A stretch of DNA of 64,000 nucleotides from Patescibacteria group bacterium (lineage in GTDB: Bacteria > Patescibacteriota > Patescibacteriia > Magasanikbacterales > UBA922), in contig JBAZIZ010000002.1 in the NCBI GenBank assembly GCA_041651535.1, positions 82,059 through 146,058 of the forward strand, written 5' to 3'. This document shows, piece after piece, positions 10,318 through 33,271 of the stretch. The stretch's first letter is position 1. Every line of letters starts with the position of its first letter. The translations under genes and the position numbers were made by a program. The notes beneath the pieces were generated by a model that ran no database searches, was not told the origin of the DNA, and saw nothing but the letters and a program-made list of their open reading frames with translations.

Positions 10318-10340
10318 GAACTTATTTGAAGTTTTTTTTA

Positions 10341-10450
10341 CCTGTGTCCAAGAAGATGTATTCTAGGTCAAAAGCGAGCCGTAGCCTGCTACAAGCCTAC
10401 AACACATCTCCATGCTTGTCGTGGACTCAGGATATTATTTTTTATTTATA
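10341..10450 (+). ncRNA. Candidate small structured RNA (GC-rich island closed by 10-bp stem CCTGTGTCCA/TGGACTCAGG and followed by a U-tract)
   Basis: Local GC rise in an AT-rich 410-bp intergenic region; long-range complementarity enclosing ~75 nt; 'ATATTATTTTTTATTT' follows the closing stem on the plus strand. Confidence 0.2.
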
Positions 10451-10601
10451 AAACTCAATATTCTAAGCACGACTTTTGAAAAATTTTAAAATAATACAAT
10501 CAATTAATTGACCACTCATAATAACAAAAATATTGGCTTTTGTCAATAGTAGTGCTGTGTATAAAATAAAAATTGGCTTATTTTAGCCAATTTTTTTTGT
10601 T

Positions 10602-12593
10602 TTAATTCTTAATTTCACCTTCTAAACTTGAATTTATTTCTTCACTATTTGAATTATTTTCTTCATTTTGGACTTGATCTGTATTTGTAATTTCTTCAGT
10701 ATTTTTTTCCTCTACTCCCAGTAAACACATTTTAGCTAGTGGACGGTAATAACTTTCATAAAGTGTCTCTTTTTTTTCTTTATTTGGCAAAATTCTTGTA
10801 TAAACAAAAGAAGCTTTTGCCCCAATATATTCGTGTTGGCACTCCATTACTCCTGGTTTTAAATCAGTAGTTTCAATTATTTTTTCTTCACCCGGTTGAA
10901 ACCATTCAGAAACAACTGGTGCACTATAATACCCCTGACGTCCATCATTTGTTCCCCAAAAAGTAAAAGACAGTTCATTTATTCCTAAATCTATGTTAGC
11001 TGTAATTAAAATATGTTTTCCAGTATCATTTAAAAATCTAAAATCTGGATGGGGCTCATAAATAGTGGCATCAGTTCCTGGCAAACCATTTCTAGCGTCA
11101 TTATAGTAAGAAACTACTAGAGAATGGTTTCTTCTTTCAGTAATTTCCAAACCAGAATTCATAGCTGTTCTAAACATTGTGGAACCAACCTGACATAGAC
11201 CACCACCAATTTCTGGCACTACTCTATCGCCTTTTATAACTAATTCTGGATAATAACCAGCTTCAGAAGTAAAAGGACTTAAAGCATTTACTAGAGAAAA
11301 TTCTTCTCCCGGTTCAATAATTAAACCATTTAGTTTATTATAAGCAGCATTTTTTATATTTTTTATTCTTAAATCGCTACTGCCTTTAAAATTTGAATAG
11401 CCGATTCCTAAAATTTCAGAAATTCCCAAATCATTTACTTCAGCAGTTTTAATTTTTGGCTCTATAGTATTTATAACAACATTAACTATTTTTAGAATAC
11501 CATTATCATTATAATAATTTCGAGAAATAAAAGCATTTTTTATAGCTTCAATTGTTTCGTCCAATTCTATCTTTATTCCTGGACGAGAACCTTGAAATTT
11601 ATTAACTTTATTTCCTTCGCCAAGTTCAAATTTTGCGTCCTGCGCTTCTACATTTACAATTGGGGCAATATCAGATTCTAAAAAATTTAAAAGTTTTTCT
11701 TCATCCAAAGAATAAATTACTTTTTCTTCAGTATTTTTTTCTAACAAAATCATTTCTTGTAATTCTTCTTGACTTAAATACCAATTATATTCTTTTTTAG
11801 TATGTGGATCATTATATAAAATATCTATTCGTCCATAAGAAAAAATCCTAGTTAGATCACTAATAACTGTTAAGATATCATTTTCTGAAATATTGGCTTT
11901 TCTTTCAAAAGTTTCTATTTTAATTTCTGGACTTTTTAAGATTGTCCAATCACTCAAAATTTTTCCTGCAACTTTTTCATAATTAAAAGTGACCCCAGCC
12001 GTAGAACTGCTAATTTGGTAATCAAGAGGATTAGTTGATTTTATCAAAATTTTTGCATCAATTGGCTCACTGATATAAGGTTTAACCAATTCTTCAATTT
12101 TTAAAAACATTTTTTGTTTTTGTAAATTAACAGTTTGTAGAGATAAATGAGGACAAGAAAATCTAGTAAAAACAGTGGACACAATATTAGATAAAAAATT
12201 ATCAGTTTTTCTAAATGATAAAAAATAATCACTTTCTTTTCTGATATCAATATCAATCAAATTTTCCACAATATCTTCCGTAGCCGCATTTGGATATAGA
12301 ATTATTTTCTCTTCTTTTCCATTTATATCAAAATAAAATTCAATTCCATGATCTGACAATTTTGTTTCCATTTTTTGTAAAAAATCAGTCAATTCTATCC
12401 GATTTAAACCACCAATATTTATTTCTCCAACATAAACTCCTGGTAAAACTTTATCTTTATAAGAATAAGAATAAAAAAACAATAAAGCAAATAGTATAAC
12501 AATCAAACCCAAACTAAACAAAAAAATAAAAAAAACTCTTTTCCAAGAAAATCTTATAATTTTTATATCTTTTAAATTCAAAAAATTAAACAT
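10602..12593 (-). CDS. VanW-domain protein (membrane-anchored)
   Basis: N-terminal TM; conserved VanW core 'PGEEFSLVNAL...GYYPELVIKGDRVVPEIGGGLCQVGSTMFRTAMNSGLEITERRNHS' (GGGxCQVSTTLF / ERxNHS signature). Confidence 0.75.
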   Translation of the reverse strand: MFNFLNLKDIKIIRFSWKRVFFIFLFSLGLIVILFALLFFYSYSYKDKVLPGVYVGEINIGGLNRIELTDFLQKMETKLSDHGIEFYFDINGKEEKIILYPNAATEDIVENLIDIDIRKESDYFLSFRKTDNFLSNIVSTVFTRFSCPHLSLQTVNLQKQKMFLKIEELVKPYISEPIDAKILIKSTNPLDYQISSSTAGVTFNYEKVAGKILSDWTILKSPEIKIETFERKANISENDILTVISDLTRIFSYGRIDILYNDPHTKKEYNWYLSQEELQEMILLEKNTEEKVIYSLDEEKLLNFLESDIAPIVNVEAQDAKFELGEGNKVNKFQGSRPGIKIELDETIEAIKNAFISRNYYNDNGILKIVNVVINTIEPKIKTAEVNDLGISEILGIGYSNFKGSSDLRIKNIKNAAYNKLNGLIIEPGEEFSLVNALSPFTSEAGYYPELVIKGDRVVPEIGGGLCQVGSTMFRTAMNSGLEITERRNHSLVVSYYNDARNGLPGTDATIYEPHPDFRFLNDTGKHILITANIDLGINELSFTFWGTNDGRQGYYSAPVVSEWFQPGEEKIIETTDLKPGVMECQHEYIGAKASFVYTRILPNKEKKETLYESYYRPLAKMCLLGVEEKNTEEITNTDQVQNEENNSNSEEINSSLEGEIKN

Positions 12594-12595
12594 AA

Positions 12596-13048
12596 TTATT
12601 CATCAATAACTTCTATTTTGATTTTTGTTTCAGTTTTTTTTATTGGAATACTTATTTGTAAAATTCCATTTTGATATTTAGCTTTTGCTAAATCACCTTT
12701 TACTTCTAAAGGTAGAACTATTGTCCTAGAAAACATCCCCCAAAAACATTCGCTATAAAAAAATTCTATATTTTTTTCTAAAGCCAAAGGATTACGACGA
12801 AAACCACGAACAGTCAATAAATCATTATGAATAAAAACTTCAATTTTTTCTGCTTCAGCTCCAGACATAGTTGAAATAATATATAAATTTTTGTCATCTT
12901 TTGCAACATCCACAGCCAATTTACCTTCATCATGGTTTGTTTTTAGATCACTAACTGGATAATTTATTTTTTGAGCCATGCTTTCGGTATCAGTTTGATT
13001 ACCTTTTTCCAAAATCATAGCAAAAATATCATTGTCATTATTATTCAT
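12596..13048 (-). CDS. Hsp20/alpha-crystallin family small heat-shock protein
   Basis: 150 aa; 'DLLTVRGFRR...KYQNGILQISIPIKK' alpha-crystallin domain pattern; 3-nt gap from VanW gene. Confidence 0.75.
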   Translation of the reverse strand: MNNNDNDIFAMILEKGNQTDTESMAQKINYPVSDLKTNHDEGKLAVDVAKDDKNLYIISTMSGAEAEKIEVFIHNDLLTVRGFRRNPLALEKNIEFFYSECFWGMFSRTIVLPLEVKGDLAKAKYQNGILQISIPIKKTETKIKIEVIDE

Positions 13049-13163
13049 ATAATAAAATTTATATTTTTATTATAACACAAAATATAGCGAAATGTCGAAA
13101 AATAAAAGCCGAAAGTCTAATCTAGAATCTTAATTCTAAAATTTTTATTCTTTTACTAAAAAA

Positions 13164-14093
13164 TTAATTTATCATTTCTTGACAAGATTCTAATTTTTTA
13201 AGTTTAATTTCTATTTTTGCATTTTTTAACATTTCTTGAGCCAAACTATTTGCACTCGGTTTTCTAATCAAAATTTGACTAGCTCTAATTTCTGAATCAG
13301 ATTCTGGATATTCCTCCCCTTTTTTGAAATCAGTCAATTTTACAAAATGATAACCAAACAAACTTTTTATTGCTTCGGGATAAATTTCATTTTTATGTAA
13401 AGAATATAAAACTTTTTCAACTTCAGGCACCATTGTATCTTTTGTAAACCAACCTAAATCTCCGCCTGATTCTGCTTTATCATCTTGACTATATTCTTTT
13501 GCTAAAACAGCAAAATCTTCATTGCTTTTTATTTTTTCAGTAATCAAATTTATTTTTTCAGTAATAATTTTATTTTGTTCTTCATCTTTTGCTAAATTAT
13601 TTTCAACTGCAAGTATCAATAAAGATTCATCAATTACAAAATAACGATAATCAGTTAAACTCAAATTATATTTTTCTCTAATTTGTTTTTTTGCTTCAGT
13701 TTTACTTTCAAACTGACGCAAAAATAAATTATAAGCATTTTCTTTTTCTGCTTTACTGATTTTTATTTCATAAAAATCAGCTTTTTCTTTTAATAATTCG
13801 CGATAAAGCAATTGTTCAAAAACTCGTTCATCTAAATTTTTATCTTGTTTAAAAAAAATCAAATCTTTCAAAAAAATATTTGCATTGGCTAAACGACTGG
13901 CAATTACATAATCTTTGTAATTTACATTTTCTCCATTGACGACTAATACAGATGAAGGAATTATTTTAGACACAAAAAAAGACAAAGAATCTGTTGAAGC
14001 AAAAAAACGCATTCTAATCCAAATGACACTAAAAAATAAAATGACAAGCAAAATTAGAGCAATGGAAATTTGTTTCCAGATTCTTTTATTCAT
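13164..14093 (-). CDS. PpiC/parvulin-type peptidyl-prolyl cis-trans isomerase (PrsA/SurA-like extracytoplasmic foldase), N-terminal membrane anchor
   Basis: 'SGGDLGWFTKDTMVPEVEKVLYSLHKNEIYPEAIKSLFGYHFVKL' matches the parvulin signature; N-terminal TM ISIALILLVILFFSVIWI. Confidence 0.75.
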   Translation of the reverse strand: MNKRIWKQISIALILLVILFFSVIWIRMRFFASTDSLSFFVSKIIPSSVLVVNGENVNYKDYVIASRLANANIFLKDLIFFKQDKNLDERVFEQLLYRELLKEKADFYEIKISKAEKENAYNLFLRQFESKTEAKKQIREKYNLSLTDYRYFVIDESLLILAVENNLAKDEEQNKIITEKINLITEKIKSNEDFAVLAKEYSQDDKAESGGDLGWFTKDTMVPEVEKVLYSLHKNEIYPEAIKSLFGYHFVKLTDFKKGEEYPESDSEIRASQILIRKPSANSLAQEMLKNAKIEIKLKKLESCQEMIN

Positions 14094-14096
14094 AAC

Positions 14097-14471
14097 TTAA
14101 TTGTTTGCTTTTTGTGATTCAGCAATAAGTAAAAGTAATAATTTTTTTACTTCAACTTGTGCTTGAGCTTCGGTAGAACTTTTTGTAAACAAATTCCATT
14201 GTTTCAAAATTTCTTCATTATTTAAAGAACGAACTCTATTTTCTAAATCCAATCTAGTTTCAAAATCAACTTCTTTATCAGTTTGTAAAACTTTTTCAAT
14301 AAAGACTTTCATGAAATCTAAATTTTGATTAGCAATACGAGCTCCGTTCAAAAGACTACTGTCGACTTCAGATTGTCTTTTTGCTTTAGCATAAGCTATA
14401 CCAAATAACACATTTCCCCCTAAAAGGACTACCGCTAAAAGCGAATAGATTATTTTGCCTGTTTTAGACAT
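14097..14471 (-). CDS. Small membrane-anchored hypothetical protein
   Basis: 124 aa; N-terminal TM (IIYSLLAVVLLGGNVLFGIAYA); sits 9 nt downstream of the giant gene. Confidence 0.5.
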   Translation of the reverse strand: MSKTGKIIYSLLAVVLLGGNVLFGIAYAKAKRQSEVDSSLLNGARIANQNLDFMKVFIEKVLQTDKEVDFETRLDLENRVRSLNNEEILKQWNLFTKSSTEAQAQVEVKKLLLLLIAESQKANN

Positions 14472-14479
14472 ATTAAAAA

Positions 14480-17400
14480 TTATGTTTTAATTTTTTTATT
14501 TTTATGGTTGTAATAATACAATAAAAACAATGAAAAAGCAATCGGCAATACAGTCTTCCAATCTAAATATTTTTTCCAAGTTGCAGCTGGATAAAGTTGA
14601 ATATTTTCAAAAATTGCATCATTAATATCTACTGTAAAATACTCGCCTCGATAATTTTTGTAACCTTTAGCCTTGGCTTCTAAATAATACTCACCTGGAG
14701 TAACTAAGAAAGAATAATCGCCAGTAACTCCGACTGTTTGTGGATTTATTTGTTGATATTTTGTAGCATTCCATAATTCAAATTCTCCGCTAGTTTCATT
14801 TTTTCGATAAAGAGAAACGACAGACCCTTTGACACGCATTTCTTTTTCACCAACTTTTTCATAAACATAACCTTCTGGATCAACAACTGTTAAAAGTCTA
14901 ATTTGTTTTCGTCCAAGTTCAGAATCAATATAATCAAAAACTGTAATAATTTCATATTCACCATCTTTTACTGGGATATCCACAAAAGCTGTATAAATTC
15001 CGTCACTATCAGGATCAGTATATTCAAATTCTTTTAAAACTAATCTTTCTTCAACTGGAATTTCTTTTTCAGCTGTTTCAGCAAAGACAGCTTCTCCAGC
15101 AAAAATATCTGATAAAATTTTATTTAGATTTGAACCAGCAGTTACAGCACTTTTAGCTTGGACAATTCCACTATTTTTATAAACAACATAACCTTTGACT
15201 GAATTTACTTTTGCTTGTGGTTTAACTATGAGTTCAACTGTCGTTCCAGAAATAGTATTAATTTTTTGAATTGGACGTCCGTTTTCATTTATAGCAACTT
15301 TTGTATTTAAATCTAAATCAGCCAAAGCATTTTTTACAAACATTATTTCTGTTGGAATTTGTTTCTTTTCTTCTTCGGATAATTTTGCTAAAGGCAATGA
15401 ATAAGAGAAAAATTCTCCTGTATCTAATTTTGAAGGATCTAAATCAATATTAAATGATGAACTTGAGTTTTCTAAATTTGTAATTTTAATATCTCCGTAT
15501 TTTACAGAACCAGTTGAAGAAATGACTGGGATATTAATTTCAGCAACTCTATTTAAAATAGTAGATGATAAACTAGGTAAAACAAAATTTATATTTTTCA
15601 TTTTGATCATATCAGTCATACGAGCTACACCAGTTTCAGTTAAAGTTGTAGAAAATTCAGGGAATTTTTCTGCTAACAAACGAACTTCGTTTGGTAATGG
15701 AGCTAAAATGAATTTTTTTACTGGAAATAAATTCCATCTTATTTCAAACGCAATTGGAGTAATCTGTGGTACAGCATCAACTAAAGGAATATTTACTGTT
15801 TCAGTTTCTGGCTCTTTTAACCAATCAGAAATTTTATCAACAATATCTTTTATTAATGGCAAATCTGTTATTTCTCCTAAAATTTCAACTCCTAATTCTT
15901 TTGCTTTTAACCATAGATCAGTTTCTTCTGTATTTTTTTCTTCTTCGATAAAATCTTCTTCATTTTCTTTTTCTTCATCATTAATTATATTTTCATTATC
16001 AACATTTACAATCAAAGAATTTTCTTTACCCAAATTTTGAGCTTGATCTTTTGCTTTTACTATTAAAGAATATTTTCCAAATGGTAAATAATTTAAATCT
16101 AAATTCCACTTTCCTTCATTGTCCGCAGAAATTTGTTTTTCACCAGCACCATCAATTTTTACAAAAATCAAACTATTAGCTTCAGTCAAACCAGAAATTT
16201 TAATTTTTTCATGAATACTGTAGCTACTTTTGTAATCAGTAAACGAGATGCTAGGTGGAGTGGTGTCTAAAATAATAGAATTAAAATATGTTTCTGAAGA
16301 TAAACCGCCAACTCTACCAAAAAATCTGACATAAACTTTTTTTAAACCATCACCACCACTTAAAATCCAATCTTTTACTTCAGCAAAACTTTCTTGTGGA
16401 ATTTGATCAAAAGAAATATCATTAGCTATTGCCATATCACTAACATCATTTCCAGCGCTTAAATTTAATTGAACATTTTTATTATTTGTGTATAAAGCTC
16501 CATTATTTATTTTTATACCTAAATTATCTGTACTTGGTCTAACATAGTTAAAAGAAGAACTTCCATCACCACCAAAACTAGGACAAGACTCGGTAGAAAA
16601 ACTATTATTTGCTGACCAACCAGATTCAACATTTTCAAAATTACGAGTTTTAATACGGAAAGAATAATTTACTCCACAAGATAAATTGGATATATTCCAA
16701 ACTGTTGTTGTTGTCCAACCAGAATTAGTTGTAGTTGAATTTATTTCTTCAATATAATATTCAGTACCACTAGGATTATCTCCAGCTGACCAATTTAAAG
16801 TCATTGAATTTTGTGTTGTCGAAGTAGCAGTTATCAAATCTGGAATTTCAGCTAAAGTATAAACAGCAGTGGAAGTTGCAGAAGCTTCTGATCTACCTCT
16901 ACTAGAATTAGCAGCATAAACTTTTACAGAATAAATTGTATTTGGTAATAAATCTTCAACTATAAAACTAGTATTAGTTACATTTATATTTTCAATATCT
17001 TCATGTTCTCCTTCAACAAATTCTAAAACAAATTCTTCAGCAAAATTACTATTATTTATCCAATTAAAGGTAATTGAATTATCTAAAATTGCTGATGGAG
17101 TATTTATAGTTGGAGCTAAAAGTCCTGTATAAATTACAGCGCTTGCTAAATTTTCTGATTCACCAATTTTATTAACACCACGAATACGATATTCATAAGC
17201 AGAATTTACACTGACTACTGTATCACTTAATGAAGAATTAGCATTAGTTGTTGTTGCTAAAACAGACCAAGAATTAAATCCAGAACCATAATTAACTCTT
17301 TTTTCAATCACAAAAGATTTACTATAAATATCTGTTGATAACCATGATAAATCAATCTGTGAATCACTTATATATTCAGCTGAAAAACTATTTGGAATTG

Positions 17401-26400: not shown

Positions 26401-29400
26401 GACTTGCTGAAACATAATCATCTACTCCATCAAAACTTAATCCAAAATTATTTTTTCCAGCTACCCAAGTAGGAGCTAAACTACCAGCGCCTAAAGTCCC
26501 ATGTCTTCCGTTGCCAGATAAATCATTGATTGTGTTTCCACTTCCTTCATCCATGTTCCAATAACTAAGTAGCCCAGATTTTAAATTTCCGGCTAACTTT
26601 TTAACATCTTCAGCTTTGATCGCTTTATTATAAATTTTTACTTCATCTAGAACACCTTTATAAGCACGAGCGCTAGAATAAGCAGAATATCCAAAATATA
26701 AATTACTGGATGCACAAGTATATTTAGACCAAGTGTAGCTACCAGCCAAAACACCGTCAATATACAGACTCATATATCTACCATCATAAGTACCGACCAT
26801 ATGATGCCAATTATTATCAGTTACAACTCCTTTTATGAGACTATAATATCCCACTCCCCAACCACCGCTGTTATCTCCTACTGTATAAGTAATAGTTTTT
26901 GCTGTTTTTTCTTTCAACCCAATAGCCCAACCTGCCAAACCATAATCAGGACCAAATTTTTCAATAAGTGTTGGGTAATCATTTGCTTGTGTACCAGCTT
27001 TCATCCAAAATTCTACGGAAAAATTAGCTGTACAAAAATAATTACTAGCTCCAAAATTTACAAAATCACTACCATCAAAAGAAACAGCTGAGCCAGATTT
27101 TCCACTTGTCCAAGTCGGCGCTGAACCACCAGTACCAAAAACTCCATTCATGCCATTACCTGATTGATCATAAACTGTAGTTCCATTACCTTCGTCCATA
27201 CTCCAATAAGCAATCAAATTATCATTCATATCCCCGACTGTATTAAAAATATCATCACCATCTGTAAAATTTATTTTTAAATTATAATAATAAGGAAATA
27301 AAGTATCATAAAAAGTAGCTAAGCCATCATTATTTCCCACATAAGAAACAGTACCAGAATCAGTATCATTTACTAAATTTGTATATTCATTACCAGCGAC
27401 GTCTAGAGTACCTTCATTAAAAAAATTTGTTGGAGAAGATAAAATCAAAGTATTAGAATTTAAAAACAAAGTTCCATCTTCATTTATTTGTAAATAACCA
27501 TTTACTGTCAAACTAGAATTATTTAAACGAAAAATAGAACCTTCTATACCATTTATTATCATATTACCCACACTACTTGCTGATAAAATATTATAAGTAC
27601 CTGTGTTTGTCCTATAATATTCAACGATACTATTATTAGCAAATTGCGGATAACCGGTATTAAAAGAATAAGTAGCACCGCTCATAAGACGAAGTCTGGC
27701 ATCATTAGCAACTATAAAAGTTGATCCGCTTCCTGTCACTCTAAGACTTTTATCTGATAAATCAAAAGTACCAGAATTTAAAAGTAGATTTTTTGAATTA
27801 TCCATTGTCAAATCTGATAAAAGAAGCAAAGACCCGCCTGTTTTATTTATTCTAATTTCTCCATCAAGACTTGAAACTACGGTATTTAAATTTATATTTT
27901 GTTCATTATCTCCAGAAAAAGTAATAAGTGGTTGAATAAAACCATCAGTAATTTCTAAATTTCCTCTGAGATTTAAATTGGAAACAGTGTTATCTCCATA
28001 AATATATCCTTTACTGATCAAAGTATCACCATATATATTTACAGTATCACTACCAGCAATTTGTAGATAATAAGAATTGCTAGATTTATTGAGTTTAAAA
28101 TTATAAAAATTTATAGACGAAACTACATCTAAAGTCGTATAACTACTTCCTCTAAAATCTACCGTTCCAATCCCTGGATCAAAAATACCACCAGTATGAG
28201 TGAAATTATTATAAAAATAAGCATTACCTTGCGGGGCGTTGAAAATTCCACCAGACAAAGTAAAAAGAGAATTAAAATATAAATTATGAGATCCAAAAGT
28301 AGCAGTTCCATTTGAATGAGTGTAAGAACCAGCAAAATTCCAATTGGTATTAGTAGTGCTTAAATTTCCGCCGGATTGAAAAGAGGCTGTACTAAATTGC
28401 AATTGTCCACCTTGCCCAATGTAATGAGTATTTCCAGCAGTAGTTTCAATAGTATAAGCATAGGTAGTGGCACTTGGACCATAAACAGTGGTAGATGCCC
28501 CAGCAAAAACAAGACGAGGTAAGTATGTTCCACCAGCAATAGACAATGTTTGCGATCCTGTGCCTGCTAAAAGTAATTGCACTATATTTCTCGCACTTGG
28601 AGTTATATATGTTGATTCTACCACTACATCACCTCTTGCTTCCAAAGCTGAATAAGTATTTCCTCCATAAAGCCAGCCGATATTTTTAAGCGTAGTTGTC
28701 CCAGTGACAACTATCCTATCATTATCATCTATTCGTAAATGATAACCAGCATATGATTTATTTAAAACAAAATTATTGAAAGTGACTGAATTTCCAGTAG
28801 TTGCTACTACATTGATATTCTGATCAACAGTAGATCCCACAAAATGCACTGTTCCACTTCCTCCACCAAAGACACCGCCAGTATGAGTGAAATTATTATA
28901 AAAATAAGCATTGCCTTGTGGGGCGTTGAAAATTCCACCAGACAAAGTAAAAAGAGAATTAAAATATAAATTATGAGATCCAAAAGTAGCAGTTCCATTT
29001 GAATGAGTGTAAGAACCAGCAAAATTCCAATTGGTATTAGTAGTGCTTAAATTTCCGCCGGATTGAAAAGAGGCTGTACTAAATTGCAATTGTCCACCTT
29101 GCCCAATGTAATGAGTATTTCCAGCAGTAGTTTCAATAGTATAAGCATAGGTAGTGGCACTTGGACCATAAACAGTGGTAGATGCCCCAGCAAAAACAAG
29201 ACGAGGTAAGTATGTTCCACCAGCAATAGACAATGTTTGCGATCCTGTGCCTGCTAAAAGTAATTGCACTGTATTTCTCGCACTTGGAGTTATATATGTT
29301 GATTCTACCACTACATCACCTCTTGCTTCCAAAGCTGAATAAGTATTTCCTCCATAAAGCCAGCCGACATTTTTAAGCGTAGTTGTCCCAGTGACAACTA

Positions 29401-31474
29401 TCCTATCATTATCATCTATTCGTAAATAATAACTAGCATATGATTTATTTAAAACAAAATTATTGAAAGTGACTGAATTTCCAGTAGTTGCTACTACATT
29501 GATATTCTGATCAACAGTAGATCCCGCAAAATGCACTGTTCCACTTCCTCCATCAAAAACACCACCAGTATGCGTGAAATTATGATAAAAATAGGCGTTG
29601 CCCTCTGAAGAATAAAAAGTCCCACCAGATAAAGTAAAAACATTACTAAAATAAATATTACCTTCAGGGGCATTGAATATTCCACCAGACAAAGTAAAAG
29701 TAGAAGCAAAAGTGATATTTCCTAAGCCAAAAGTAGAAATACCGTTTGAATGAGTATAAGTACTACCAAAATACCAATTTGTATTGGTAGTAGTCAGGTT
29801 TCCGCCTGATTGTAGTGAAGGACCACTCATCTGAAGTTGTCCACCTTGTCCGATATAGTGAGTATTTCCTGATATTGTCTCAAAAGTATAAGCATAGGCA
29901 GCCGCTTCTGGACCATAAACTGTGGTAGATACTCCAGAAAAAATCAATCGTGGTATATAAGTAGCACTGGCAATATTGACTGTTTGTGGTCCTGTACCAG
30001 CAATATTTAATCTAAAACTATTTCTTCCATAAGAATAATTATGGGTTGATTCTATCACCACATCACCTCTAGCTTCTAAATTTGAATTAGCATCACCACC
30101 ATATAAATAACCTCTTCTTAAAGTAGTAGTGCCATTAACTATCAGTTTGTCAGCCGAAGAAATTGTTAAATAATAACTAGTATCATTTTGATTTAAAATA
30201 AAATTATTGAATGTAACAGTATTTCCGCTAGAAGCTGCAATATTAAAAGTTGTATTAATTCCTCTAAAATGTGCAGTTCCAATTCCTCCATCAAAGATAC
30301 CTCCAGTGTGAGTAAAATTACTATCAAAATATGTATTTGTCTCAGAAGCGGTAAATGTTCCTCCAGATAAAGTAAAAGTAGAATAAAAAATAACATTTCC
30401 CACACCAAAAGTAGAAGTTCCATTGGAGTGAGTATAAGAACTACCAAAATACCAATTAGTATTCGTAGTTGTCAGATTGCCCCCAGACTGAAGTGATGGA
30501 CCACTCATCTGCAACTGTCCACCTTGTCCAATATAGTGAGTATTTCCTGATATTGTCTCAAAAGTATAAGCATAGGCAGCCGCTTCTGGACCATAAACTG
30601 TGGTAGATACTCCAGAAAAAATCAATCGTGGTATATAAGTAGCACTGGCAATATTGACTGTTTGTGGTCCTGTACCAGCAATATTTAATCTAAAACTATT
30701 TCTTCCATAAGAATAATTATGGGTTGATTCTATCACCACATCACCTCTAGCTTCTAAATTTGAATTAGCATCACCACCATATAAATAACCTCTTCTTAAA
30801 GTAGTAGTGCCATTAACTATCAGTTTGTCAGCCGAAGAAATTGTTAAATAATAACTAGTATCATTTTGATTTAAAATAAAATTATTGAATGTAACAGTAT
30901 TTCCGCTAGAAGCTGCAATATTAAAAGTTGTATTAATTCCTCTAAAATGTGCAGTTCCAATTCCTCCATCAAAGATACCTCCAGTGTGAGTAAAATTACT
31001 ATCAAAATATGTTGTTCCTTGTGAAGCATTGAAAGTACCACCAGATAAAGTAAAAGTAGAAGCAAAAGAAATATTTCCTAAACCACCATTGAAAACACCG
31101 TTTGATTGGGAAAAAGTACCACTAAGAGAAAAAGTATAACCGCTTTCACGAGTAATAGTTCCAGTGTAACCAGAAGAAATTGTAAAACTATTTAAATTGA
31201 CATTGGCATCTATAGAACAATCAGCTGTAGCTGTACCATTAAAAACAACAAGATCGCCAGTTCCAGGAGTACCTACAGGAGACCAGTTATTACTATTTGT
31301 CCAGAGTCCATCTCCTCCACTGTTTGTCCAAGTGTAAGTTGTGCCCGCAGCAAAAGATTGCCAAGTTACAAAAGCACCAATAAATACTAAAAACAAAAAA
31401 AATGTCCAAGGGTGTTTGGAAAAAAAGCTTAATGATTTTGTTAAGTTTTTCAATGAAAAACGTTTCTTTTTCAT
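14480..31474 (-). CDS. Giant (5664 aa) cell-surface protein: signal peptide, 4-5 tandem ~226-229-aa Gly/Thr/Asn-rich beta-repeats, two LamG/concanavalin-like lectin domains, ~5 large FN3/Ig-like repeat modules, CarbopepD_reg-like domain, C-terminal TM anchor
   Basis: Uninterrupted 17-kb ORF; N-term MKKKRF...FLFLVFIGAFVTWQSFA; LamG-like 'LIAYWSMDEGNGTTVYDQSGNGMNGV...NWHHMVGTYDG' twice; repeated 'TAPSxV/L...W.D.S..E.GF.IE' FN3-like units; C-term WKKYLDWKTVLPIAFSLFLLYYY. Confidence 0.85.
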   Translation of the reverse strand: MKKKRFSLKNLTKSLSFFSKHPWTFFLFLVFIGAFVTWQSFAAGTTYTWTNSGGDGLWTNSNNWSPVGTPGTGDLVVFNGTATADCSIDANVNLNSFTISSGYTGTITRESGYTFSLSGTFSQSNGVFNGGLGNISFASTFTLSGGTFNASQGTTYFDSNFTHTGGIFDGGIGTAHFRGINTTFNIAASSGNTVTFNNFILNQNDTSYYLTISSADKLIVNGTTTLRRGYLYGGDANSNLEARGDVVIESTHNYSYGRNSFRLNIAGTGPQTVNIASATYIPRLIFSGVSTTVYGPEAAAYAYTFETISGNTHYIGQGGQLQMSGPSLQSGGNLTTTNTNWYFGSSYTHSNGTSTFGVGNVIFYSTFTLSGGTFTASETNTYFDSNFTHTGGIFDGGIGTAHFRGINTTFNIAASSGNTVTFNNFILNQNDTSYYLTISSADKLIVNGTTTLRRGYLYGGDANSNLEARGDVVIESTHNYSYGRNSFRLNIAGTGPQTVNIASATYIPRLIFSGVSTTVYGPEAAAYAYTFETISGNTHYIGQGGQLQMSGPSLQSGGNLTTTNTNWYFGSTYTHSNGISTFGLGNITFASTFTLSGGIFNAPEGNIYFSNVFTLSGGTFYSSEGNAYFYHNFTHTGGVFDGGSGTVHFAGSTVDQNINVVATTGNSVTFNNFVLNKSYASYYLRIDDNDRIVVTGTTTLKNVGWLYGGNTYSALEARGDVVVESTYITPSARNTVQLLLAGTGSQTLSIAGGTYLPRLVFAGASTTVYGPSATTYAYTIETTAGNTHYIGQGGQLQFSTASFQSGGNLSTTNTNWNFAGSYTHSNGTATFGSHNLYFNSLFTLSGGIFNAPQGNAYFYNNFTHTGGVFGGGSGTVHFVGSTVDQNINVVATTGNSVTFNNFVLNKSYAGYHLRIDDNDRIVVTGTTTLKNIGWLYGGNTYSALEARGDVVVESTYITPSARNIVQLLLAGTGSQTLSIAGGTYLPRLVFAGASTTVYGPSATTYAYTIETTAGNTHYIGQGGQLQFSTASFQSGGNLSTTNTNWNFAGSYTHSNGTATFGSHNLYFNSLFTLSGGIFNAPQGNAYFYNNFTHTGGIFDPGIGTVDFRGSSYTTLDVVSSINFYNFKLNKSSNSYYLQIAGSDTVNIYGDTLISKGYIYGDNTVSNLNLRGNLEITDGFIQPLITFSGDNEQNINLNTVVSSLDGEIRINKTGGSLLLLSDLTMDNSKNLLLNSGTFDLSDKSLRVTGSGSTFIVANDARLRLMSGATYSFNTGYPQFANNSIVEYYRTNTGTYNILSASSVGNMIINGIEGSIFRLNNSSLTVNGYLQINEDGTLFLNSNTLILSSPTNFFNEGTLDVAGNEYTNLVNDTDSGTVSYVGNNDGLATFYDTLFPYYYNLKINFTDGDDIFNTVGDMNDNLIAYWSMDEGNGTTVYDQSGNGMNGVFGTGGSAPTWTSGKSGSAVSFDGSDFVNFGASNYFCTANFSVEFWMKAGTQANDYPTLIEKFGPDYGLAGWAIGLKEKTAKTITYTVGDNSGGWGVGYYSLIKGVVTDNNWHHMVGTYDGRYMSLYIDGVLAGSYTWSKYTCASSNLYFGYSAYSSARAYKGVLDEVKIYNKAIKAEDVKKLAGNLKSGLLSYWNMDEGSGNTINDLSGNGRHGTLGAGSLAPTWVAGKNNFGLSFDGVDDYVSASHGELDKTFSVSAWINYSNLSNTQVPIAGGSVYDYFFSNIGGTLYNSLRDASSNQITCNTNLTTGWHHYTSTINVTGSNVDWKIYRDGILVEQCLSSTGLTPFSLTRLGSRIDGQYYFSGILDDVAFYYRVLPVSEISDLVSVNPLYEATDSFSIYNNLEGSNGNFIAPSTTLYVGGNILMLSPGIFDANSGLVILNGEVQTIGGFIVFNDLTKTVTSSQILYVTAGSDIKIEGSANLSGIPNNLLSLHSTVSGTQANIDFAGARAVEFLDVKDIVNFNSSAVLCINGCVDSGNNINFTFVTAPPHYEVRKSGASSASVTAGEDLVISIFLIDEFGSVSSTYNGNYDIIFYGANNSPYSDRPTAKDIFENNRNFGSTTTLNFINGEATTTLKLYKNETVQIDVSGNNFNTSGSNDYALIVTVGSQILNEFILSSSANVISGIPFTIDSISKDAFGNITNYVNSDTQVSVTSTVDTFASISPTIVSSSEFTDDGLAETYFTINNVTNLETLRIDYYNDYDGNITTSSVFLSAVGIPTAPSGVAASYFALNSFRITWSDTSGGVASGFVVERDTDTGSGFGNNWVAIATTTQATNSFIDNVANNIIDPPQSNERYKYRVRSFNSVGYSVSYGSDPVAHYTVPGTPSNLLATYNSSPLKFDLTFTDNSAVSDYFSLDRCVGISCASNIFSSVSSSLYGTSTLDTSLSGNSRYRYRVKAIVPPDAPATEIINVSSTFAYSAYEYTAPATPSDLKFYQVSSNQWFLSWKDNSTYENGFEIQVSYDGGSNFEPVISGATVGQNVKTYLFSSPTSQNDLQFKVRAYISATDNNSELYSGDSAGSQVLSTDFHYEIKGNSSQIAGNSQTISIILKDLNGNTSTFWSGDKELFFSGASSSVNGIVPTCSDKNNSPIVFGNTTTITFTNGVASCNLILYRAENAVLEVTDNFYSTNADNSYSLGVTVVGNSLNRFLIDAPATINYNSSTMITVYALDTYYNNTLSVSGNTNLSLYVNSVLTGTINPAIISATNFTDDGIWAGNITVTDIYENPTVVITAVNGSANGSDSFLFNGRPNTPGSVAVSYISDNEFEITWQDRSTIETGYLVQKKTDTGSGLPGTWVTIATLSTNTQSFVDNATNNPLDAPQADRRYMYQIIASGSIVSSYGASDNLIHYTTPDYPTNFYATYVNDNRFNLYFTDNANVINTHVFSRCDSAGCDSSTFNFLGKSSSSPYADTASLLANNRYKYVSHSETPSPESLISSDVYSAYEFTSPAAPSAFYASEATSNTISFVWTDNALYESGYLLEYAVASSSVFTPIYNNGITTVGADMTGFSFASSTPDNAYRFKMRSAISATVRNGALYSSYVGGTEYVYTQPNKPINQAAIFSTSTVISLSWDDDSNYEDGFRIEVSINGGGWSEITTSTNTVGANITTYDLVDVDLNNDYQFRVRSHIAGNTFAPEVFSEYTEVFSPQSYHFEFSPLNDITTTAGTTTTVTLALKDSGGNIVSDYNGEKNVYFSGASSSITGVEPTVINFNGEQIDFGSITSINFINGEAEINMFLPAVGSYNIDADTLAYSTAENNSYQLRVSVDPASVDSFTISSQQSTVTSTIPFTLSVTAFDEYLNTTTAVLGNTYISSSIGDISPVGIAEADFTDDGIWEGSVTLSNINDRNTVYLYVNNGSANGEIYLTVIGIPNKPSGVASSLNSDEEGSYFSIGWSDNSVVETGYEIQKCVLASSGASCAEGDWSLATTTSANIHNTRDYSVSLDSKIKYRVRGFNSIGYSDWATEVNYHFTKPDAPINVYAKRISSSQFSVYYTSQTGITNEHRIFRSDYYFTSNESNSFYSVSSPYSDTYQITTNNRFLYNVKAKTSDGIYSDDSYSIYEYTTPVAPSSVISAIVNETQVQISWVDNSLFESGFRIEESINSGSWNEIDSGNDQTGQNIRTYLHTVSSTSSNTYKYRVRAHIGETANNSELFSSYSNEAIAEISDLHFEIYAPATTTAGVVTALQIALRDVNGNNASYFTGNRILKFISDGTQPTLYCSDKDGNNIMFGENTTVSFINGAATCSTTLYNAVTTTIDVYDDSFSSTSSPAYDLDLKVEPNVARKFSVSAPTQAVSTVPSTVRLIAQDFWNNTTTLIFNTTTVSVSTGSVSPLQILDSSFENGIATISLVISSIIERPAVNVEFRGFDSYSSTTIYGNAYITVLGVPNAPTSVSSVRNSNESITLSWSDNSTIESGYAIERQVDEGSGFGSWIFVAQVNTNIHSYTDYSTVANRRYKYRVRTIGSFANSDYAEDPINSLGGIYTTPTAPTFISPVRYSDNRFDITFVDNALVTNYFDLKRCDGAACSTNSFSAITTTPILLIPSQTVTGTINYTDNLNIDVNNRYRYAFTVKPPASSGSTVSAVAYSNYEYTKPAAPSGVNAIKTEENIIYIYWDDNSSYEDGFRIEYSDDSAEHFTEVTPGTNTVGANVESYNFTIPSTTLTYLFRIKSHVPATASNVELLSDFDQTQTSETHLVVTGSNTQNVGESQTITLTIRDGENNIITDYDGDKSIILTGPSNSLTGVQATCTNKSGNPVNIGLITTINFVDGVGQCNFTPYRAETVLLRATDGLHTSYTHPSYNLNLTAVAGTLNNFLVAIPATSSIDLAFETIIYARDIYNNITKQVSGNTSLTASVGSLSVNSIAQSDFTDDGIWYGNLSINNLYDLNNVILTAQNSGASGYDSIEIIAAPNLPLNVLASYISDNQINISWTDNSSAEDYYVVEKRSDTTGSGFGSWTTLATTSPNAVILSDINTAGNKRYEYRVYSGNIYGNSDYVYSNVVYTSLPAPVITTSTVLSANSMVWDWTSSALFSTEFRLHFTSSNHLDYININSSSDSFTVNDLTPNTGYQIVLYTWRSDRGYSPASNTSTLLYTFAALPTDIQVSTNTDETLTLNWNQNSNPSSTEYKVKNITTGDESEWITNNSWTDNNLDCETSYDYIIKARNHDNVETDWTVTSTLETGLCVMPSIPNSFSAEYISDSQIDLSWLSTDIYSKSFVIEKRVNYGSGFNSWSVLATTTNANSSLSDTVVSVNSAYEYRIRGVNKIGESENLASAVIYTGLLAPTINTPSAILDNSITFNWINNSNFAEEFVLEFVEGEHEDIENINVTNTSFIVEDLLPNTIYSVKVYAANSSRGRSEASATSTAVYTLAEIPDLITATSTTQNSMTLNWSAGDNPSGTEYYIEEINSTTTNSGWTTTTVWNISNLSCGVNYSFRIKTRNFENVESGWSANNSFSTESCPSFGGDGSSSFNYVRPSTDNLGIKINNGALYTNNKNVQLNLSAGNDVSDMAIANDISFDQIPQESFAEVKDWILSGGDGLKKVYVRFFGRVGGLSSETYFNSIILDTTPPSISFTDYKSSYSIHEKIKISGLTEANSLIFVKIDGAGEKQISADNEGKWNLDLNYLPFGKYSLIVKAKDQAQNLGKENSLIVNVDNENIINDEEKENEEDFIEEEKNTEETDLWLKAKELGVEILGEITDLPLIKDIVDKISDWLKEPETETVNIPLVDAVPQITPIAFEIRWNLFPVKKFILAPLPNEVRLLAEKFPEFSTTLTETGVARMTDMIKMKNINFVLPSLSSTILNRVAEINIPVISSTGSVKYGDIKITNLENSSSSFNIDLDPSKLDTGEFFSYSLPLAKLSEEEKKQIPTEIMFVKNALADLDLNTKVAINENGRPIQKINTISGTTVELIVKPQAKVNSVKGYVVYKNSGIVQAKSAVTAGSNLNKILSDIFAGEAVFAETAEKEIPVEERLVLKEFEYTDPDSDGIYTAFVDIPVKDGEYEIITVFDYIDSELGRKQIRLLTVVDPEGYVYEKVGEKEMRVKGSVVSLYRKNETSGEFELWNATKYQQINPQTVGVTGDYSFLVTPGEYYLEAKAKGYKNYRGEYFTVDINDAIFENIQLYPAATWKKYLDWKTVLPIAFSLFLLYYYNHKNKKIKT
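28190..31150. repeat. Intragenic tandem direct repeats: two perfect 678-bp units (~29790-31145) and two near-perfect 687-bp units (~28190-29563), plus a diverged fifth unit
   Basis: Identical strings recur with periods of 678 bp ('ccactcatct' at 29823 and 30501) and 687 bp ('gtatgagtga' at 28194 and 28881; 'gtatgcgtga' at 29568); mirrored as identical 226-aa protein repeats. Confidence 0.85.
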
Positions 31475-31711
31475 TTTAAATTATTTTTGTTTTTTACAAG
31501 TAAATTATAACATTTTTTTGATTTATTGCCAAACTTTTTTTACTATTTACTTGTTGATAAACCAAGCAAAAATTAATTTTAAAAAAATATTCAAAAAAAT
31601 TTACTTTTTCTTTTAATTTTTATGTTTATTTTTTTGTTTTTGTTTCCCTTCCCTACTGGAAGGTGGGGTTATTTTAAATTCAACAATTAAAAGAATTAGA
31701 AACATTTAAGA

Positions 31712-32301: not shown

Positions 32302-32317
32302 TTAAAGATTGTTTAAG

Positions 32318-32884: not shown

Positions 32885-33271
32885 TTATTCCTCTGTACTA
32901 AACGGTCCCATGTTTAAAATTTTATTTTTTTTAGCACTGTATAAAACAGCTTTACCTGCTTCTTTATAAATCAAAAGGTAATCACCATTTTCAGCTCCCG
33001 CAAAAAAAGCTTGCTTCAAAGCTGGTTGATTAATATCCGAAATTCGACTAATTATTGGAACTTCTTCTGGGGCATCAAAAAGTTTACTGATCTTTTTTAA
33101 GACATCGTCAGATTCTTCTTTGTTTTCATTTTCAATCTGTTCTTTATTTTGTTCTTTATTTTTTTCAATATTTTCTTCTTGTTCATTGTTATCAAAATAA
33201 AAAAATATTGCGCTTCCAATTAAAAAAGTCACAATTATAATTATTAAAATCATATATTTTTTTTTATTCAT
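32885..33271 (-). CDS. Hypothetical membrane-anchored protein (128 aa)
   Basis: N-terminal TM ILIIIIVTFLIGSAIFFYF, charged Glu/Lys-rich linker, globular C-terminus. Confidence 0.45.
   Translation of the reverse strand: MNKKKYMILIIIIVTFLIGSAIFFYFDNNEQEENIEKNKEQNKEQIENENKEESDDVLKKISKLFDAPEEVPIISRISDINQPALKQAFFAGAENGDYLLIYKEAGKAVLYSAKKNKILNMGPFSTEE

What the first reader, a model, noticed from the sequence alone, without database searches (positions are those of the whole stretch)
10602..31474. 17-kb giant surface-protein gene followed by a co-directional PrsA-like foldase / Hsp20 / VanW module
A single 5664-aa ORF encodes a multidomain cell-surface protein. Its parts are a signal peptide, a Gly/Thr/Asn-rich beta-repeat array, two LamG-type lectin domains, about five large FN3/Ig-like repeat modules and a C-terminal TM anchor. 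Four genes follow on the same strand: a small membrane protein, a membrane-anchored parvulin PPIase, an Hsp20 chaperone and a VanW-domain protein. A secreted 5664-aa protein would need an extracytoplasmic foldase, and PrsA-type PPIases do that job in Gram-positive bacteria. The gene order suggests a dedicated export/folding/anchoring cassette for a giant adhesin. Such giant LamG-bearing proteins are typical of episymbiotic CPR bacteria and are candidates for host attachment.
Basis: partly seen in the sequence, partly recalled or inferred. Interest (0 to 1): 0.7.

Follow-up and report, generated by a model that had tools for sequence, protein, structure and literature searches.

The report
Giant CPR surface protein with partner gene
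A 5664-residue surface protein of an ultra-small (Patescibacteria) bacterium is a hugely enlarged member of a widespread, undescribed two-gene pair (a surface protein with a conserved membrane "foot", plus a tiny membrane protein); the folding-enzyme gene was added only in this clade, and the heat-shock and cell-wall genes behind it are unrelated neighbours.

Summary
In detail: all five ORFs, their coordinates and their domains are real. Comparative genomics shows three grades of linkage.

1. The giant protein's last ~415 residues form a "base module" found throughout Patescibacteria. In 75 of 75 testable metagenome loci, a protein ending in this module lies directly upstream of a homolog of the 124-aa membrane protein (g124). 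The g124 family has 435 cluster representatives and no Pfam or NCBIfam model. This pair is the conserved unit. Its payloads and sizes vary (189 to ≥3335 aa, median 705).

2. The PrsA-like parvulin follows g124 only in the window's own clade (5 lineages). It is absent from 50 of 50 other loci, including four with partner proteins of 2245 to ≥3335 aa. It is a clean presence/absence difference between two syntenic loci (L006 versus L017). Distant CPR parvulins sit at an unrelated locus; the one with annotated neighbours lies among cell-division genes.

3. Hsp20 and VanW have their own conserved promoter and occur only in the two closest lineages. Hsp20 is cytoplasmic. The VanW protein has the architecture of a peptidoglycan L,D-transpeptidase.

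So this is not a five-gene adhesin cassette. It is a giant+g124(+foldase) operon next to a stress/cell-wall unit.

The parts
31504..31532 (-). Promoter-like site of the giant-gene operon: TTGGCA, 17 nt, TGtTATAAT (extended -10), ending 29 nt upstream of the ATG
   Evidence: Read directly from the sequence. It is a consensus match only, with no transcript data.
14480..31474 (-). Giant surface-protein gene (5664 aa)
   Evidence: Single ORF. Orthologous fragments are 63-69% identical over 1667-3207 aa.
31346..31474 (-). N-terminal signal peptide or anchor (aa 1-43; h-region aa 25-43, then SFA/AG)
   Evidence: Hydropathy analysis and the sequence itself.
28175..31177 (-). Five T/G/N/S-rich repeats of ~220-240 aa (aa ~100-1100). 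This is the distal part of the protein. Pairs are 89-98% identical in protein and 94-98% in DNA.
   Evidence: Self-comparison, DNA identity and composition. No Pfam or PDB sequence match.
25985..27217 (-). Two LamG-type (Laminin_G_3, concanavalin-like lectin) domains, aa ~1420-1830
   Evidence: Pfam PF13385, 5e-35, two stretches.
18125..25507 (-). Stalk of five ~520-620-aa modules of Ig-like and FN3-like domains (aa ~1990-4450), 28-43% identical to each other
   Evidence: Self-comparison and Pfam fn3.
16595..18124 (-). Two ~280-aa FN3 repeats (aa ~4451-4960)
   Evidence: Self-comparison. Best fn3 stretch is aa 4795-4869.
14483..15727 (-). Conserved C-terminal 'base module' (aa ~5250-5664): small helical subdomain, beta-sandwiches, transthyretin-like domain, TM helix and basic tail
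14097..14471 (-). g124: small membrane protein with an N-terminal TM helix and a ~95-aa helical-bundle ectodomain. It is the universally linked partner of the base module.
   Evidence: No Pfam or NCBIfam family. 435 cluster representatives. 75 of 75 testable loci have a base-module ORF directly upstream. AF2 pLDDT 87.
13164..14093 (-). PrsA/PpiD-like parvulin foldase anchored by an N-terminal TM helix; a clade-specific third gene of the operon
   Evidence: Rotamase 1e-20 plus weak SurA_N_2. Aligns to full-length PrsA structures 6vj6 and 5htf. Present in 5 lineages, absent in 50 of 50 others and in syntenic L017.
13069..13098 (-). Promoter-like site of the Hsp20-VanW unit: TCGACA, 18 nt, TGtTATAAT
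   Evidence: 11 of 12 matches with TG. The extended -10 block is conserved in L010 at the same distance from the ATG.
12596..13048 (-). Small heat-shock protein (Hsp20/alpha-crystallin), cytoplasmic; not part of the giant-protein module
   Evidence: PF00011 7e-13. No hydrophobic segment. Linked only in the window and L010.
10602..12593 (-). Membrane-anchored PG_binding_4 + VanW protein, a probable VanW-type peptidoglycan L,D-transpeptidase; not part of the giant-protein module
   Evidence: PF04294 9e-36 and PF12229 6e-11. Same architecture as C. difficile Ldt4/Ldt5 (PMC11348318). GGGLCQ..RRNHS..GTDAT present.
10568..10595 (.). Bidirectional terminator-like hairpin (11-bp stem flanked by A and T runs) that closes the co-directional gene row
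   Evidence: and the sequence.

Best explanation
The region holds two adjacent transcription units, not one cassette.

Unit 1 runs from the promoter-like site at ~31532 to the stop at 13164 on the minus strand. It encodes the giant protein, g124 and a PrsA-like parvulin. The giant protein is a lineage-specific, greatly enlarged member of a Patescibacteria-wide family of surface proteins. These proteins share a ~415-aa C-terminal base module made of a helical subdomain, beta-sandwiches, a transthyretin-like domain, a TM helix and a basic tail. They are always encoded directly upstream of a g124-family gene, and the two genes often overlap.

Proposed mechanism:
- The protein is exported through Sec by its N-terminal signal sequence (inferred).
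- The C-terminal TM helix stops transfer and leaves the protein anchored, with its C-terminus in the cytoplasm (inferred from the sequence).
- g124 has its N-terminus in the cytoplasm and a four-helix ectodomain outside. It is made in step with the giant protein and pairs with the base module, giving a two-helix membrane foot (inferred from strict adjacency and complementary topology; not shown).
- A stalk of roughly 30 Ig/FN3 domains holds two LamG lectin domains and the T/G/N-rich repeat array far from the cell, on the order of 100 nm, for contact with a partner cell or a polymer (inferred).
- In this clade only, a membrane-anchored PrsA-like foldase gene was inserted after g124 and is co-transcribed. 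It probably assists folding after translocation, and the giant protein is an obvious but not necessarily exclusive client.

Unit 2 encodes Hsp20 and a VanW-type L,D-transpeptidase, with its own promoter. It is a general stress and cell-wall unit whose adjacency is specific to this lineage.
For: ORFs, domains and gaps.

Promoter-like sites before the giant gene and before Hsp20, and a terminator after VanW. The Hsp20 extended -10 is conserved in L010.

The triad giant-g124-PPIase occurs in 5 lineages with four different downstream neighbours.

The base module is a large CPR family. Three distant members are each followed by a g124 homolog.

The metagenome scan confirmed 293 g124 relatives. In 75 of 75 testable loci the base-module ORF is directly upstream, and in 65 of 75 the gap is <=32 nt or the genes overlap.

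The g124 family has 435 representatives, all standalone proteins of ~80-160 aa. The g124 ectodomain is nearly invariant within the clade while the PPIase falls to 32% identity.

Payloads vary between members: LamG, SdiA-regulated, DUF2341, fn3. Two pairs lie on one contig (L056 and L089).

The PPIase is present in 0 of 50 loci outside the clade, shows a clean presence/absence between L006 and L017, and sits elsewhere in L096 and L097.

The PPIase aligns with full-length PrsA structures. Hsp20 has no TM or signal sequence. VanW domains are L,D-transpeptidases (PMC11348318).
Against: - No direct evidence exists that g124 binds the base module. Only single-chain models could be made, and the g124 fold is a generic four-helix bundle.
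- No transcript data exist. No terminator was found between the PPIase and Hsp20 in the window, so read-through into Hsp20-VanW is possible.
- The C-terminal hydrophobic segment is weak on the Kyte-Doolittle scale (below the 1.6 threshold), although AF2 models it as a helix and it is conserved.
- The parvulin lacks the canonical first His strand, so its catalytic activity is uncertain.
- Whether this PPIase is the only PrsA-type gene of the genome is unknown. If it is, it would be a general foldase.
- Every related contig breaks inside the giant gene, so no relative shows the full gene.
- Host binding is not shown.
Confidence: 0.6

Rival explanations
1. One reading: all five genes form one dedicated export/folding/anchoring cassette for the giant adhesin. 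PrsA folds it outside the membrane, Hsp20 holds it inside, and VanW anchors it to the wall.
For: All five genes are co-directional with short gaps. No terminator was detected until after VanW. The same five-gene order appears in L010. A VanW homolog also lies near another pair in L084.
Against: Hsp20 and VanW are absent next to the triad in 3 of 5 clade lineages. Outside the clade, within the fetched flanks (up to 10 kb each side), Hsp20 occurs in 2 of 50 loci and VanW in 1 of 50. That matches the chance expectation of 1-1.7 per 50 for a 0.6-1 Mb genome. A separate promoter-like site is conserved. Hsp20 is cytoplasmic.
Confidence: 0.07
2. The PPIase is simply the cell's general PrsA-type secretion foldase, and it happens to lie downstream of the giant-gene pair in this clade. 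It has no special relation to the giant protein.
For: CPR-type parvulins of the same architecture occur at another locus in other lineages: DivIC-PPIase-..-FtsEX in L096, and also L097. There is no PPIase next to 50 of 50 other pairs, including four with partner proteins of 2245 to >=3335 aa. L017 lacks it in the same syntenic slot. L012 lacks it as well.
Against: The 3-4-nt spacing after g124 is kept in all five lineages although the PPIase has diverged to 32% identity and the genes beyond it have changed four times. This argues that selection keeps it in the operon.
Confidence: 0.25
3. g124 is not a structural anchor partner. Instead it is a dedicated assembly chaperone or quality-control factor that acts transiently on the base module during or after translocation, or a sensor that couples display to the state of the envelope.
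Confidence: 0.2
4. The 17-kb ORF is inflated or chimeric because near-identical repeats were mis-assembled, and the true gene is much shorter.
For: The gene has a 482-nt exact internal repeat and repeat pairs 94-98% identical in DNA. Every related contig breaks inside the gene.
Against: An independent contig carries an orthologous gene called at >=4573 aa. The older 28-43% identical modules cannot be collapsed or expanded by an assembler. The reading frame is intact over 16,995 nt. Only the copy number of the aa 100-1100 repeats is in doubt.
Confidence: 0.05

Closest known systems
PrsA (Bacillus, Listeria, Streptococcus) and PpiD (E. coli): membrane-tethered parvulin-type post-translocation foldases
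   Same: g309 has a parvulin domain flanked by SurA-N-like chaperone segments and faces the extracytoplasmic side. phmmer aligns residues ~82-302 to full-length PrsA structures (6vj6, 5htf, 4wo7). Its size (309 aa) is PrsA-like. Its N-terminal TM signal-anchor is PpiD-like.
   Different: It has no lipobox Cys and so is not a lipoprotein like PrsA. The canonical first strand 'KASHIL' before the domain is missing, and a conserved 'RASQILIR' strand lies after it. It is encoded inside a surface-protein operon. All NCBIfam PrsA models score far below their cut-offs (55-59 bits against 343-361).
Giant repeat adhesins of other bacteria (SiiE, LapA/MpIBP-type 'Ca_tandemer' adhesins, Ebh; named from own knowledge)
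   Same: A very long stalk of tandem beta-sandwich domains carries ligand-binding domains at the distal end. The repeats have recently been amplified.
   Different: It has no RTX or T1SS C-terminus (0 GGxGxD motifs) and no LPxTG motif. Only a sub-threshold Ca_tandemer hit was found (21.5 bits against 50). Anchoring is by a conserved C-terminal base module with a TM helix and a dedicated small partner protein.
VanW-type L,D-transpeptidases Ldt4/Ldt5 of Clostridioides difficile (PMC11348318)
   Same: g663 has the same architecture: an N-terminal TM helix, PG_binding_4 and a VanW domain. It contains Cys, His and Asp in conserved motifs.
   Different: It is longer (663 aa) and has an N-terminal region with no annotation. 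Activity has not been tested. It is encoded directly behind an Hsp20 gene.
Pam pilus system of CPR bacteria (bioRxiv 10.64898/2026.03.03.709456)
   Same: It is a CPR-specific surface structure built by Sec export with membrane-anchored accessory proteins and no trans-envelope machine. The neighbouring gene g205 gives a weak PamT hit (39 bits against cut-off 240).
   Different: Pam components are Ig-fold pilins assembled by donor-strand exchange, with C-terminally anchored two-domain chaperones. Neither g124 (an N-anchored helical bundle) nor the base module matches any Pam model.
Giant LamG-bearing surface proteins of DPANN archaea (for example the nanohaloarchaeal SPEARE proteins; named from own knowledge and not tested here)
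   Same: A very large secreted or anchored protein with LamG lectin domains, in an ultra-small, probably host-dependent organism.
   Different: A different domain of life and no detectable homology of the anchoring part. No g124-type partner is known there.

Membership tests
PrsA/PpiD-type membrane-anchored parvulin foldase | Parvulin (PpiC-type rotamase) domain | tested here: met
   PF00639 1.3e-20 and PF13616 1.5e-19, aa 162-255.
PrsA/PpiD-type membrane-anchored parvulin foldase | SurA-N-like chaperone (NC) domain flanking the parvulin domain | tested here: met
   phmmer aligns aa 84-302 to full-length PrsA 6vj6 (1.6e-15) and aa 82-301 to 5htf. Pfam SurA_N_2 scores 26.2 bits, just under its cut-off of 28.5.
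PrsA/PpiD-type membrane-anchored parvulin foldase | Tether to the outer face of the cytoplasmic membrane (lipobox in PrsA, N-terminal TM helix in PpiD) | tested here: met
   TM segment aa 8-26. There is no Cys in the first 45 residues, so the tether is a PpiD-type anchor, not a PrsA lipoprotein.
PrsA/PpiD-type membrane-anchored parvulin foldase | Catalytic dual-histidine motif of active parvulins | tested here: inconclusive
   The second His is present (GYHFVKL). The first His strand is absent before the domain, and a 'RASQILIR' strand with Gln lies after it. Chaperone function of this family does not require PPIase activity (established knowledge).
PrsA/PpiD-type membrane-anchored parvulin foldase | Foldase or chaperone activity on secreted clients | not testable with these tools
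   Needs biochemistry or genetics.
Small heat-shock protein (Hsp20/alpha-crystallin) | Alpha-crystallin domain in a ~150-aa cytoplasmic protein | tested here: met
   PF00011 7.4e-13, aa 50-147. No hydrophobic segment.
VanW-type peptidoglycan L,D-transpeptidase (Ldt4/Ldt5 family) | Architecture of TM helix + PG_binding_4 + VanW domain | tested here: met
   TM aa 20-38. PF12229 6e-11 and PF04294 9e-36. Architecture as described in PMC11348318.
VanW-type peptidoglycan L,D-transpeptidase (Ldt4/Ldt5 family) | Conserved Cys-His-Asp catalytic triad | tested here: inconclusive
   GGGLCQ (Cys467), RRNHS and GTDAT are present in the VanW domain.
Sortase-anchored LPXTG surface proteins | C-terminal LPXTG motif followed by a hydrophobic segment and a basic tail | tested here: not met
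   No LPxTG-like motif in the last 120 residues. The hydrophobic segment and basic tail are present.
T1SS-secreted RTX/'Ca_tandemer' giant adhesins | RTX nonapeptide repeats and a C-terminal secretion signal | tested here: not met
   0 GGxGxD motifs. No HemolysinCabind hit. Ca_tandemer scores 21.5 bits against a cut-off of 50. An N-terminal signal peptide is present instead.
Base-module + g124 gene pair of Patescibacteria (defined here; no curated family exists) | C-terminal ~415-aa module homologous to the family and ending in a TM helix plus basic tail | tested here: met
   238 or more hits at E<=1e-5, the best at about 1e-100 and 40-47% identity. phmmer detects the module in 90 locus ORFs.
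Base-module + g124 gene pair of Patescibacteria (defined here; no curated family exists) | A g124-family gene immediately downstream on the same strand | tested here: met
   The gap is 8 nt in the window. The same arrangement holds in 75 of 75 testable loci outside the clade and in all clade loci.
Pam pilus system (CPR) | Match to PamT, Pam pilin or Pam chaperone models at their curated cut-offs | tested here: not met
   Only g205, which lies outside the finding, hits PamT, at 39 bits against a cut-off of 240. The giant C-terminus, g124 and g309 have no Pam hits.

The most novel reading that the evidence does not exclude
The C-terminal base module and the g124-family protein together form a previously undescribed, Patescibacteria-wide system for mounting surface proteins on the cytoplasmic membrane. 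It would be a split two-helix 'foot' on which very different ectodomains are displayed, from 400-aa proteins to giant lectin-tipped fibres, some encoded next to diversity-generating retroelements. It would play the role that sortase/LPXTG or S-layer anchors play in other bacteria. One clade has added a dedicated PrsA-like foldase to the operon that carries its largest cargo.
Probability: 0.4. Interest if true: 0.75.

Novelty: new variant of a known kind. Interest (0 to 1): 0.55.

Why it matters
Patescibacteria are thought to live attached to other cells, yet little is known about how they build and anchor their surface structures apart from type IV pili and the newly described Pam pili.

This locus shows that a conserved ~415-aa membrane-proximal module and a ~120-aa partner protein always occur together across many CPR lineages. 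The partner family has 435 cluster representatives and no curated family model. The pair carries highly variable ectodomains. That gives a concrete, testable candidate for a general CPR surface-display system, and a simple marker (g124) for finding the cell-surface repertoire in these genomes.

It also corrects an attractive but wrong operon story. The Hsp20 and VanW genes are neighbours, not parts of the module, and the foldase is an optional, clade-specific addition.

Tried and rejected
- **YfgM-PpiD analogy.** I considered g124 plus PPIase as an analog of the E. coli pair. I dropped it because g124 is too small for a YfgM-type TPR domain and is linked to the base module, not to the PPIase (L012-L015, L017).
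- **afdb50 Foldseek.** The library was unavailable.
- **Possible second g124-like gene at 32885..33271.** Rejected: the 16-bit match comes from the TM helix plus low-complexity K/E sequence.
- **Species-representative genome scan with g124.** It found one locus only (L012), so the taxonomy of the clade stays at 'Patescibacteria group bacterium'.
- **Lipocone preprint.** It concerns VanZ, not VanW, and is irrelevant.
- **N-terminal 1357 aa.** No PDB sequence match, so the repeats remain without a fold assignment.
- **Rfam on the 10.2-10.6 kb gap.** No family matched.
- **Literature searches.** They found no prior description of the pair and no direct evidence that such LamG giants mediate CPR host attachment.
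Full report
**Observation.**

The window is 25-36% GC and otherwise encodes housekeeping genes: pheST, an M50 protease, a Clp ATPase, RadA, RecG, DnaX and a DEAD helicase. An identical copy of the PPIase is recorded from an NCBI MAG named 'Patescibacteria group bacterium', on a 186,920-bp contig.

Pfam confirms the domain calls. The giant has two Laminin_G_3 domains, fn3, and weak Big_13 and CarboxypepD_reg. The small genes give Rotamase plus weak SurA_N, HSP20, and VanW plus PG_binding_4; the 124-aa protein has no match.

Self-comparison confirms the repeat plan. There are five ~220-240-aa T/G/N/S-rich repeats, with pairs up to 98% identical. There are five ~520-620-aa Ig/FN3 modules (28-43% identical) and two ~280-aa FN3 repeats.

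Hydropathy gives an N-terminal signal-like segment in the giant and single N-terminal TM segments in the 124-, 309- and 663-aa proteins. Hsp20 has none.

The gene contains a 482-nt exact repeat. This explains why every related contig breaks inside it, and it leaves the copy number of the N-terminal repeats uncertain.

**Transcription signals.**

A good sigma-70-like site (TTGGCA, 17 nt, TGtTATAAT) ends 29 nt before the giant ATG. No convincing terminator lies between the giant, g124 and the PPIase.

The 115-nt gap before Hsp20 holds the best promoter-like site of the region (TCGACA, 18 nt, TGtTATAAT). A bidirectional hairpin closes the row right after VanW at 10568-10595.

In the only relative that also has Hsp20 (L010), the spacer has diverged, but the extended -10 block TGnTATAATAAAA is kept at the same distance from the ATG. 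These are consensus matches, not transcript data.

**Synteny within the clade.**

Close relatives of the PPIase are few, and the first word-based search found only nine g124 clusters. Their contigs, compared by BLASTP, all show giant C-terminus, then g124, then PPIase, with gaps of about 9 and 3 nt. The genes after the PPIase differ between lineages:

| Lineage | What follows the PPIase |
|---|---|
| Window and L010 (g124 87% identical) | Hsp20 then VanW |
| L005, L008, L009 | An unrelated 304-375-aa gene |
| L001-L004 | A convergent NUDIX gene |
| L006, L007 | A convergent gyrA |

In L006 the PPIase is only 32% identical to the window's, while g124 is 67% identical and the giant C-terminus 53%. 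The g124 ectodomain is nearly invariant across the clade. The triad is therefore kept as a unit while its flanks changed, and Hsp20-VanW is not part of it.

**The wider family.**

The last 515 residues of the giant found a very large family: 238 hits at E<=1e-5 within a capped candidate list, the best around 1e-100 and ~40-44% identical. Most are 600-870-aa proteins from Nomura-, Brenner-, Doudna-, Staskawicz-, Portnoy- and Magasanikbacteria, Minisyncoccales and others. Sources label them only 'carboxypeptidase-like regulatory domain-containing'.

In three distant members on long contigs (L013-L015), the next gene is a 119-120-aa protein that is a clear g124 homolog (40-48% identity, E 1e-29 to 1e-31). 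A Paceibacterota MAG shows the same pair (L012).

The 80 retrieved loci gave the following outside the window's clade:
- 75 of 75 loci with enough upstream sequence have a co-directional base-module ORF directly upstream.
- In 65 of these 75 the gap is at most 32 nt or the genes overlap.
- Complete partner proteins range from 189 to 2654 aa, median 705. One is at least 3335 aa.

An exhaustive HMMER search gives 435 g124 representatives at 50% clustering, and all 150 listed are standalone proteins of ~80-160 aa.

Payloads differ between members. L059 has LamG ×2, an SdiA-regulated propeller, DUF2341 and fn3; L049 has DUF2341. Ordinary members have 'GYAWSENxGWINF' repeats. Two pairs occur on one contig (L056 and L089).

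The conserved unit is thus a two-gene pair, and the window's giant is one enlarged member of it.

**The PPIase.**

It aligns with full-length PrsA structures and with SurA parvulin domains. It has an N-terminal TM anchor and no lipobox. It is therefore PrsA-like in size and domain order and PpiD-like in its tether.

The evidence that it is a clade-specific addition is as follows:
- Outside the clade, no PPIase lies anywhere in the 50 loci that have at least 1.2 kb downstream of g124. These include loci with partner proteins of 2245, 2245, 2654 and at least 3335 aa.
- L017 shares the syntenic frame of L006: base module 61% identical, g124 63%, and a convergent gyrA 71%. It lacks the PPIase, and tblastn finds no remnant.
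- More distant CPR parvulins of the same architecture sit elsewhere. L096 has the order DivIC, PPIase, one small gene, FtsE, FtsX. Neither L096 nor L097 has a giant, g124 or base-module homolog.

Its retention in five lineages still suggests a benefit from co-expression with the giant protein.

**Hsp20 and VanW.**

Hsp20 is a cytoplasmic alpha-crystallin protein. VanW domains were shown in 2024 to be catalytic domains of a new family of peptidoglycan L,D-transpeptidases. C. difficile Ldt4 and Ldt5 have the same TM + PG_binding_4 + VanW architecture and a Cys-His-Asp triad (PMC11348318). g663 has that architecture and the motifs GGGLCQ, RRNHS and GTDAT.

Outside the clade, Hsp20 occurs within the fetched flanks (up to 10 kb each side) of a pair in 2 of 50 loci and VanW in 1 of 50. 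None of these is adjacent in the window's arrangement. This equals the 1-1.7 per 50 expected by chance for a single-copy gene in a 0.6-1 Mb genome (the genome size comes from general knowledge of CPR).

**Structure.**

**Mechanism (mostly inferred).**

- Sec exports the giant protein through its N-terminal signal sequence.
- The C-terminal TM helix and basic tail stop transfer, leaving the C-terminus inside the cell.
- g124 has the opposite orientation (N-terminus inside) and is made by coupled translation. It pairs with the base module to form a membrane foot.
- About 30 beta-sandwich domains hold the LamG lectins and the repeat array far from the cell.
- The PrsA-like protein assists folding at the membrane surface.

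What is shown: strict gene adjacency, family breadth, topology-compatible sequence features, and the graded synteny. What is not shown: any physical interaction, transcription, localisation or ligand.

**Comparison with known systems, and novelty.**

The giant protein works like other giant stalk adhesins but lacks RTX/T1SS and LPXTG features. The foldase works like PrsA or PpiD, but all NCBIfam PrsA models score far below their cut-offs. The Pam pilus system recently described in CPR uses different components.

No Pfam or NCBIfam model covers g124 or most of the base module. Literature searches found no description of the pair.

I therefore rate the finding as a new variant of a known kind: a membrane-anchored modular adhesin with an undescribed conserved anchor-and-partner pair. 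There is a real chance that the pair is a general CPR surface-display system.

Noticed in passing
window 10275-10512, minus strand: Candidate small RNA between the VanW terminator and g205. It has a strong promoter-like site (TTGACA, 17 nt, TGtTATTAT at 10546-10518), a GC-richer core and a terminal hairpin with a U-run. The MFE is -67.9 kcal/mol against -42.3 ± 4.2 for shuffles (z = -6.1). No Rfam family matches.
   Followed up: partly
window 4334-10187, minus strand: A second surface-protein cluster lies downstream of the finding. g205 has a signal peptide and a weak hit to the CPR pilus tip protein PamT (39 bits against cut-off 240). g286 has a signal peptide, beta domains, a C-terminal TM helix and a weak WxLIP_PGBD hit, so it is shaped like a PamC/D chaperone. 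It is followed by g385 and a 1061-aa CarboxypepD_reg/SdrD_B protein. This may be a divergent Pam-like pilus operon.
   Followed up: partly
window 31480-32880: The 1.4-kb intergenic region upstream of the giant gene is packed with GC-rich hairpin repeats (for example ...cccgacgtttcgtcgggg... and ...cccgatttaatcggg...). They flank a plus-strand GIY-YIG nuclease ORF at 31999-32301 (PF01541, 3e-16). It looks like a small mobile or REP-like element field.
   Followed up: no
window 60113-60231, minus strand: LOOT RNA (RF03000), 70.9 bits against a gathering score of 46.4, full length. It overlaps a probably spurious 122-aa ORF at 60016-60384.
   Followed up: no
window 13164-14093 (g309), aa ~160-281; also P0002-P0007 and the L006 PPIase: The CPR-type parvulins lack the canonical first beta-strand 'xKASHILx' before the domain. 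They carry a conserved 'IRASQILIRKP' or 'VRASQILFRFP' strand after it, which phmmer aligned to the first strand of SurA's second parvulin domain. This looks like a circular permutation with His replaced by Gln.
   Followed up: partly
L013, L026, L041, L050, L056, L074 (just upstream of the base-module gene): Parts of a diversity-generating retroelement recur immediately upstream of the base-module/g124 pair in 5-6 loci: a reverse transcriptase (RVT_1), bAvd and an Lcl_C-type target protein. In L013 bAvd ends 18 nt before the pair.
   Followed up: partly
L035, L042, L065, L079, L082 and others (directly downstream of g124): In 13 of the 14 loci where this family occurs, the pair is followed by a further large surface protein (up to 2399 aa). 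It has a conserved N-terminus 'PG(D/E)TLNPxCxPTDxxC' and no Pfam match.
   Followed up: partly
A3 consensus; ordinary family members such as P0130-P0249: Most 600-870-aa members of the base-module family carry N-terminal repeats with the motif 'GYAWSENxGWINF' as their payload, and Pfam has no model for them.
   Followed up: no
window 49514-51238, plus strand: A 574-aa protein combines a T4SS_pilin-like segment (weak) with a VanY D-Ala-D-Ala carboxypeptidase domain. It lies in a plus-strand row with a Clp ATPase and RadA.
   Followed up: no
window ~13120 and ~32870, minus strand: The motif 'ttttagaattaagatt(c/t)t' occurs just after the PPIase stop and again just after the stop of the 128-aa gene at 32885. 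It may be a shared 3' element or a chance match in AT-rich DNA.
   Followed up: no
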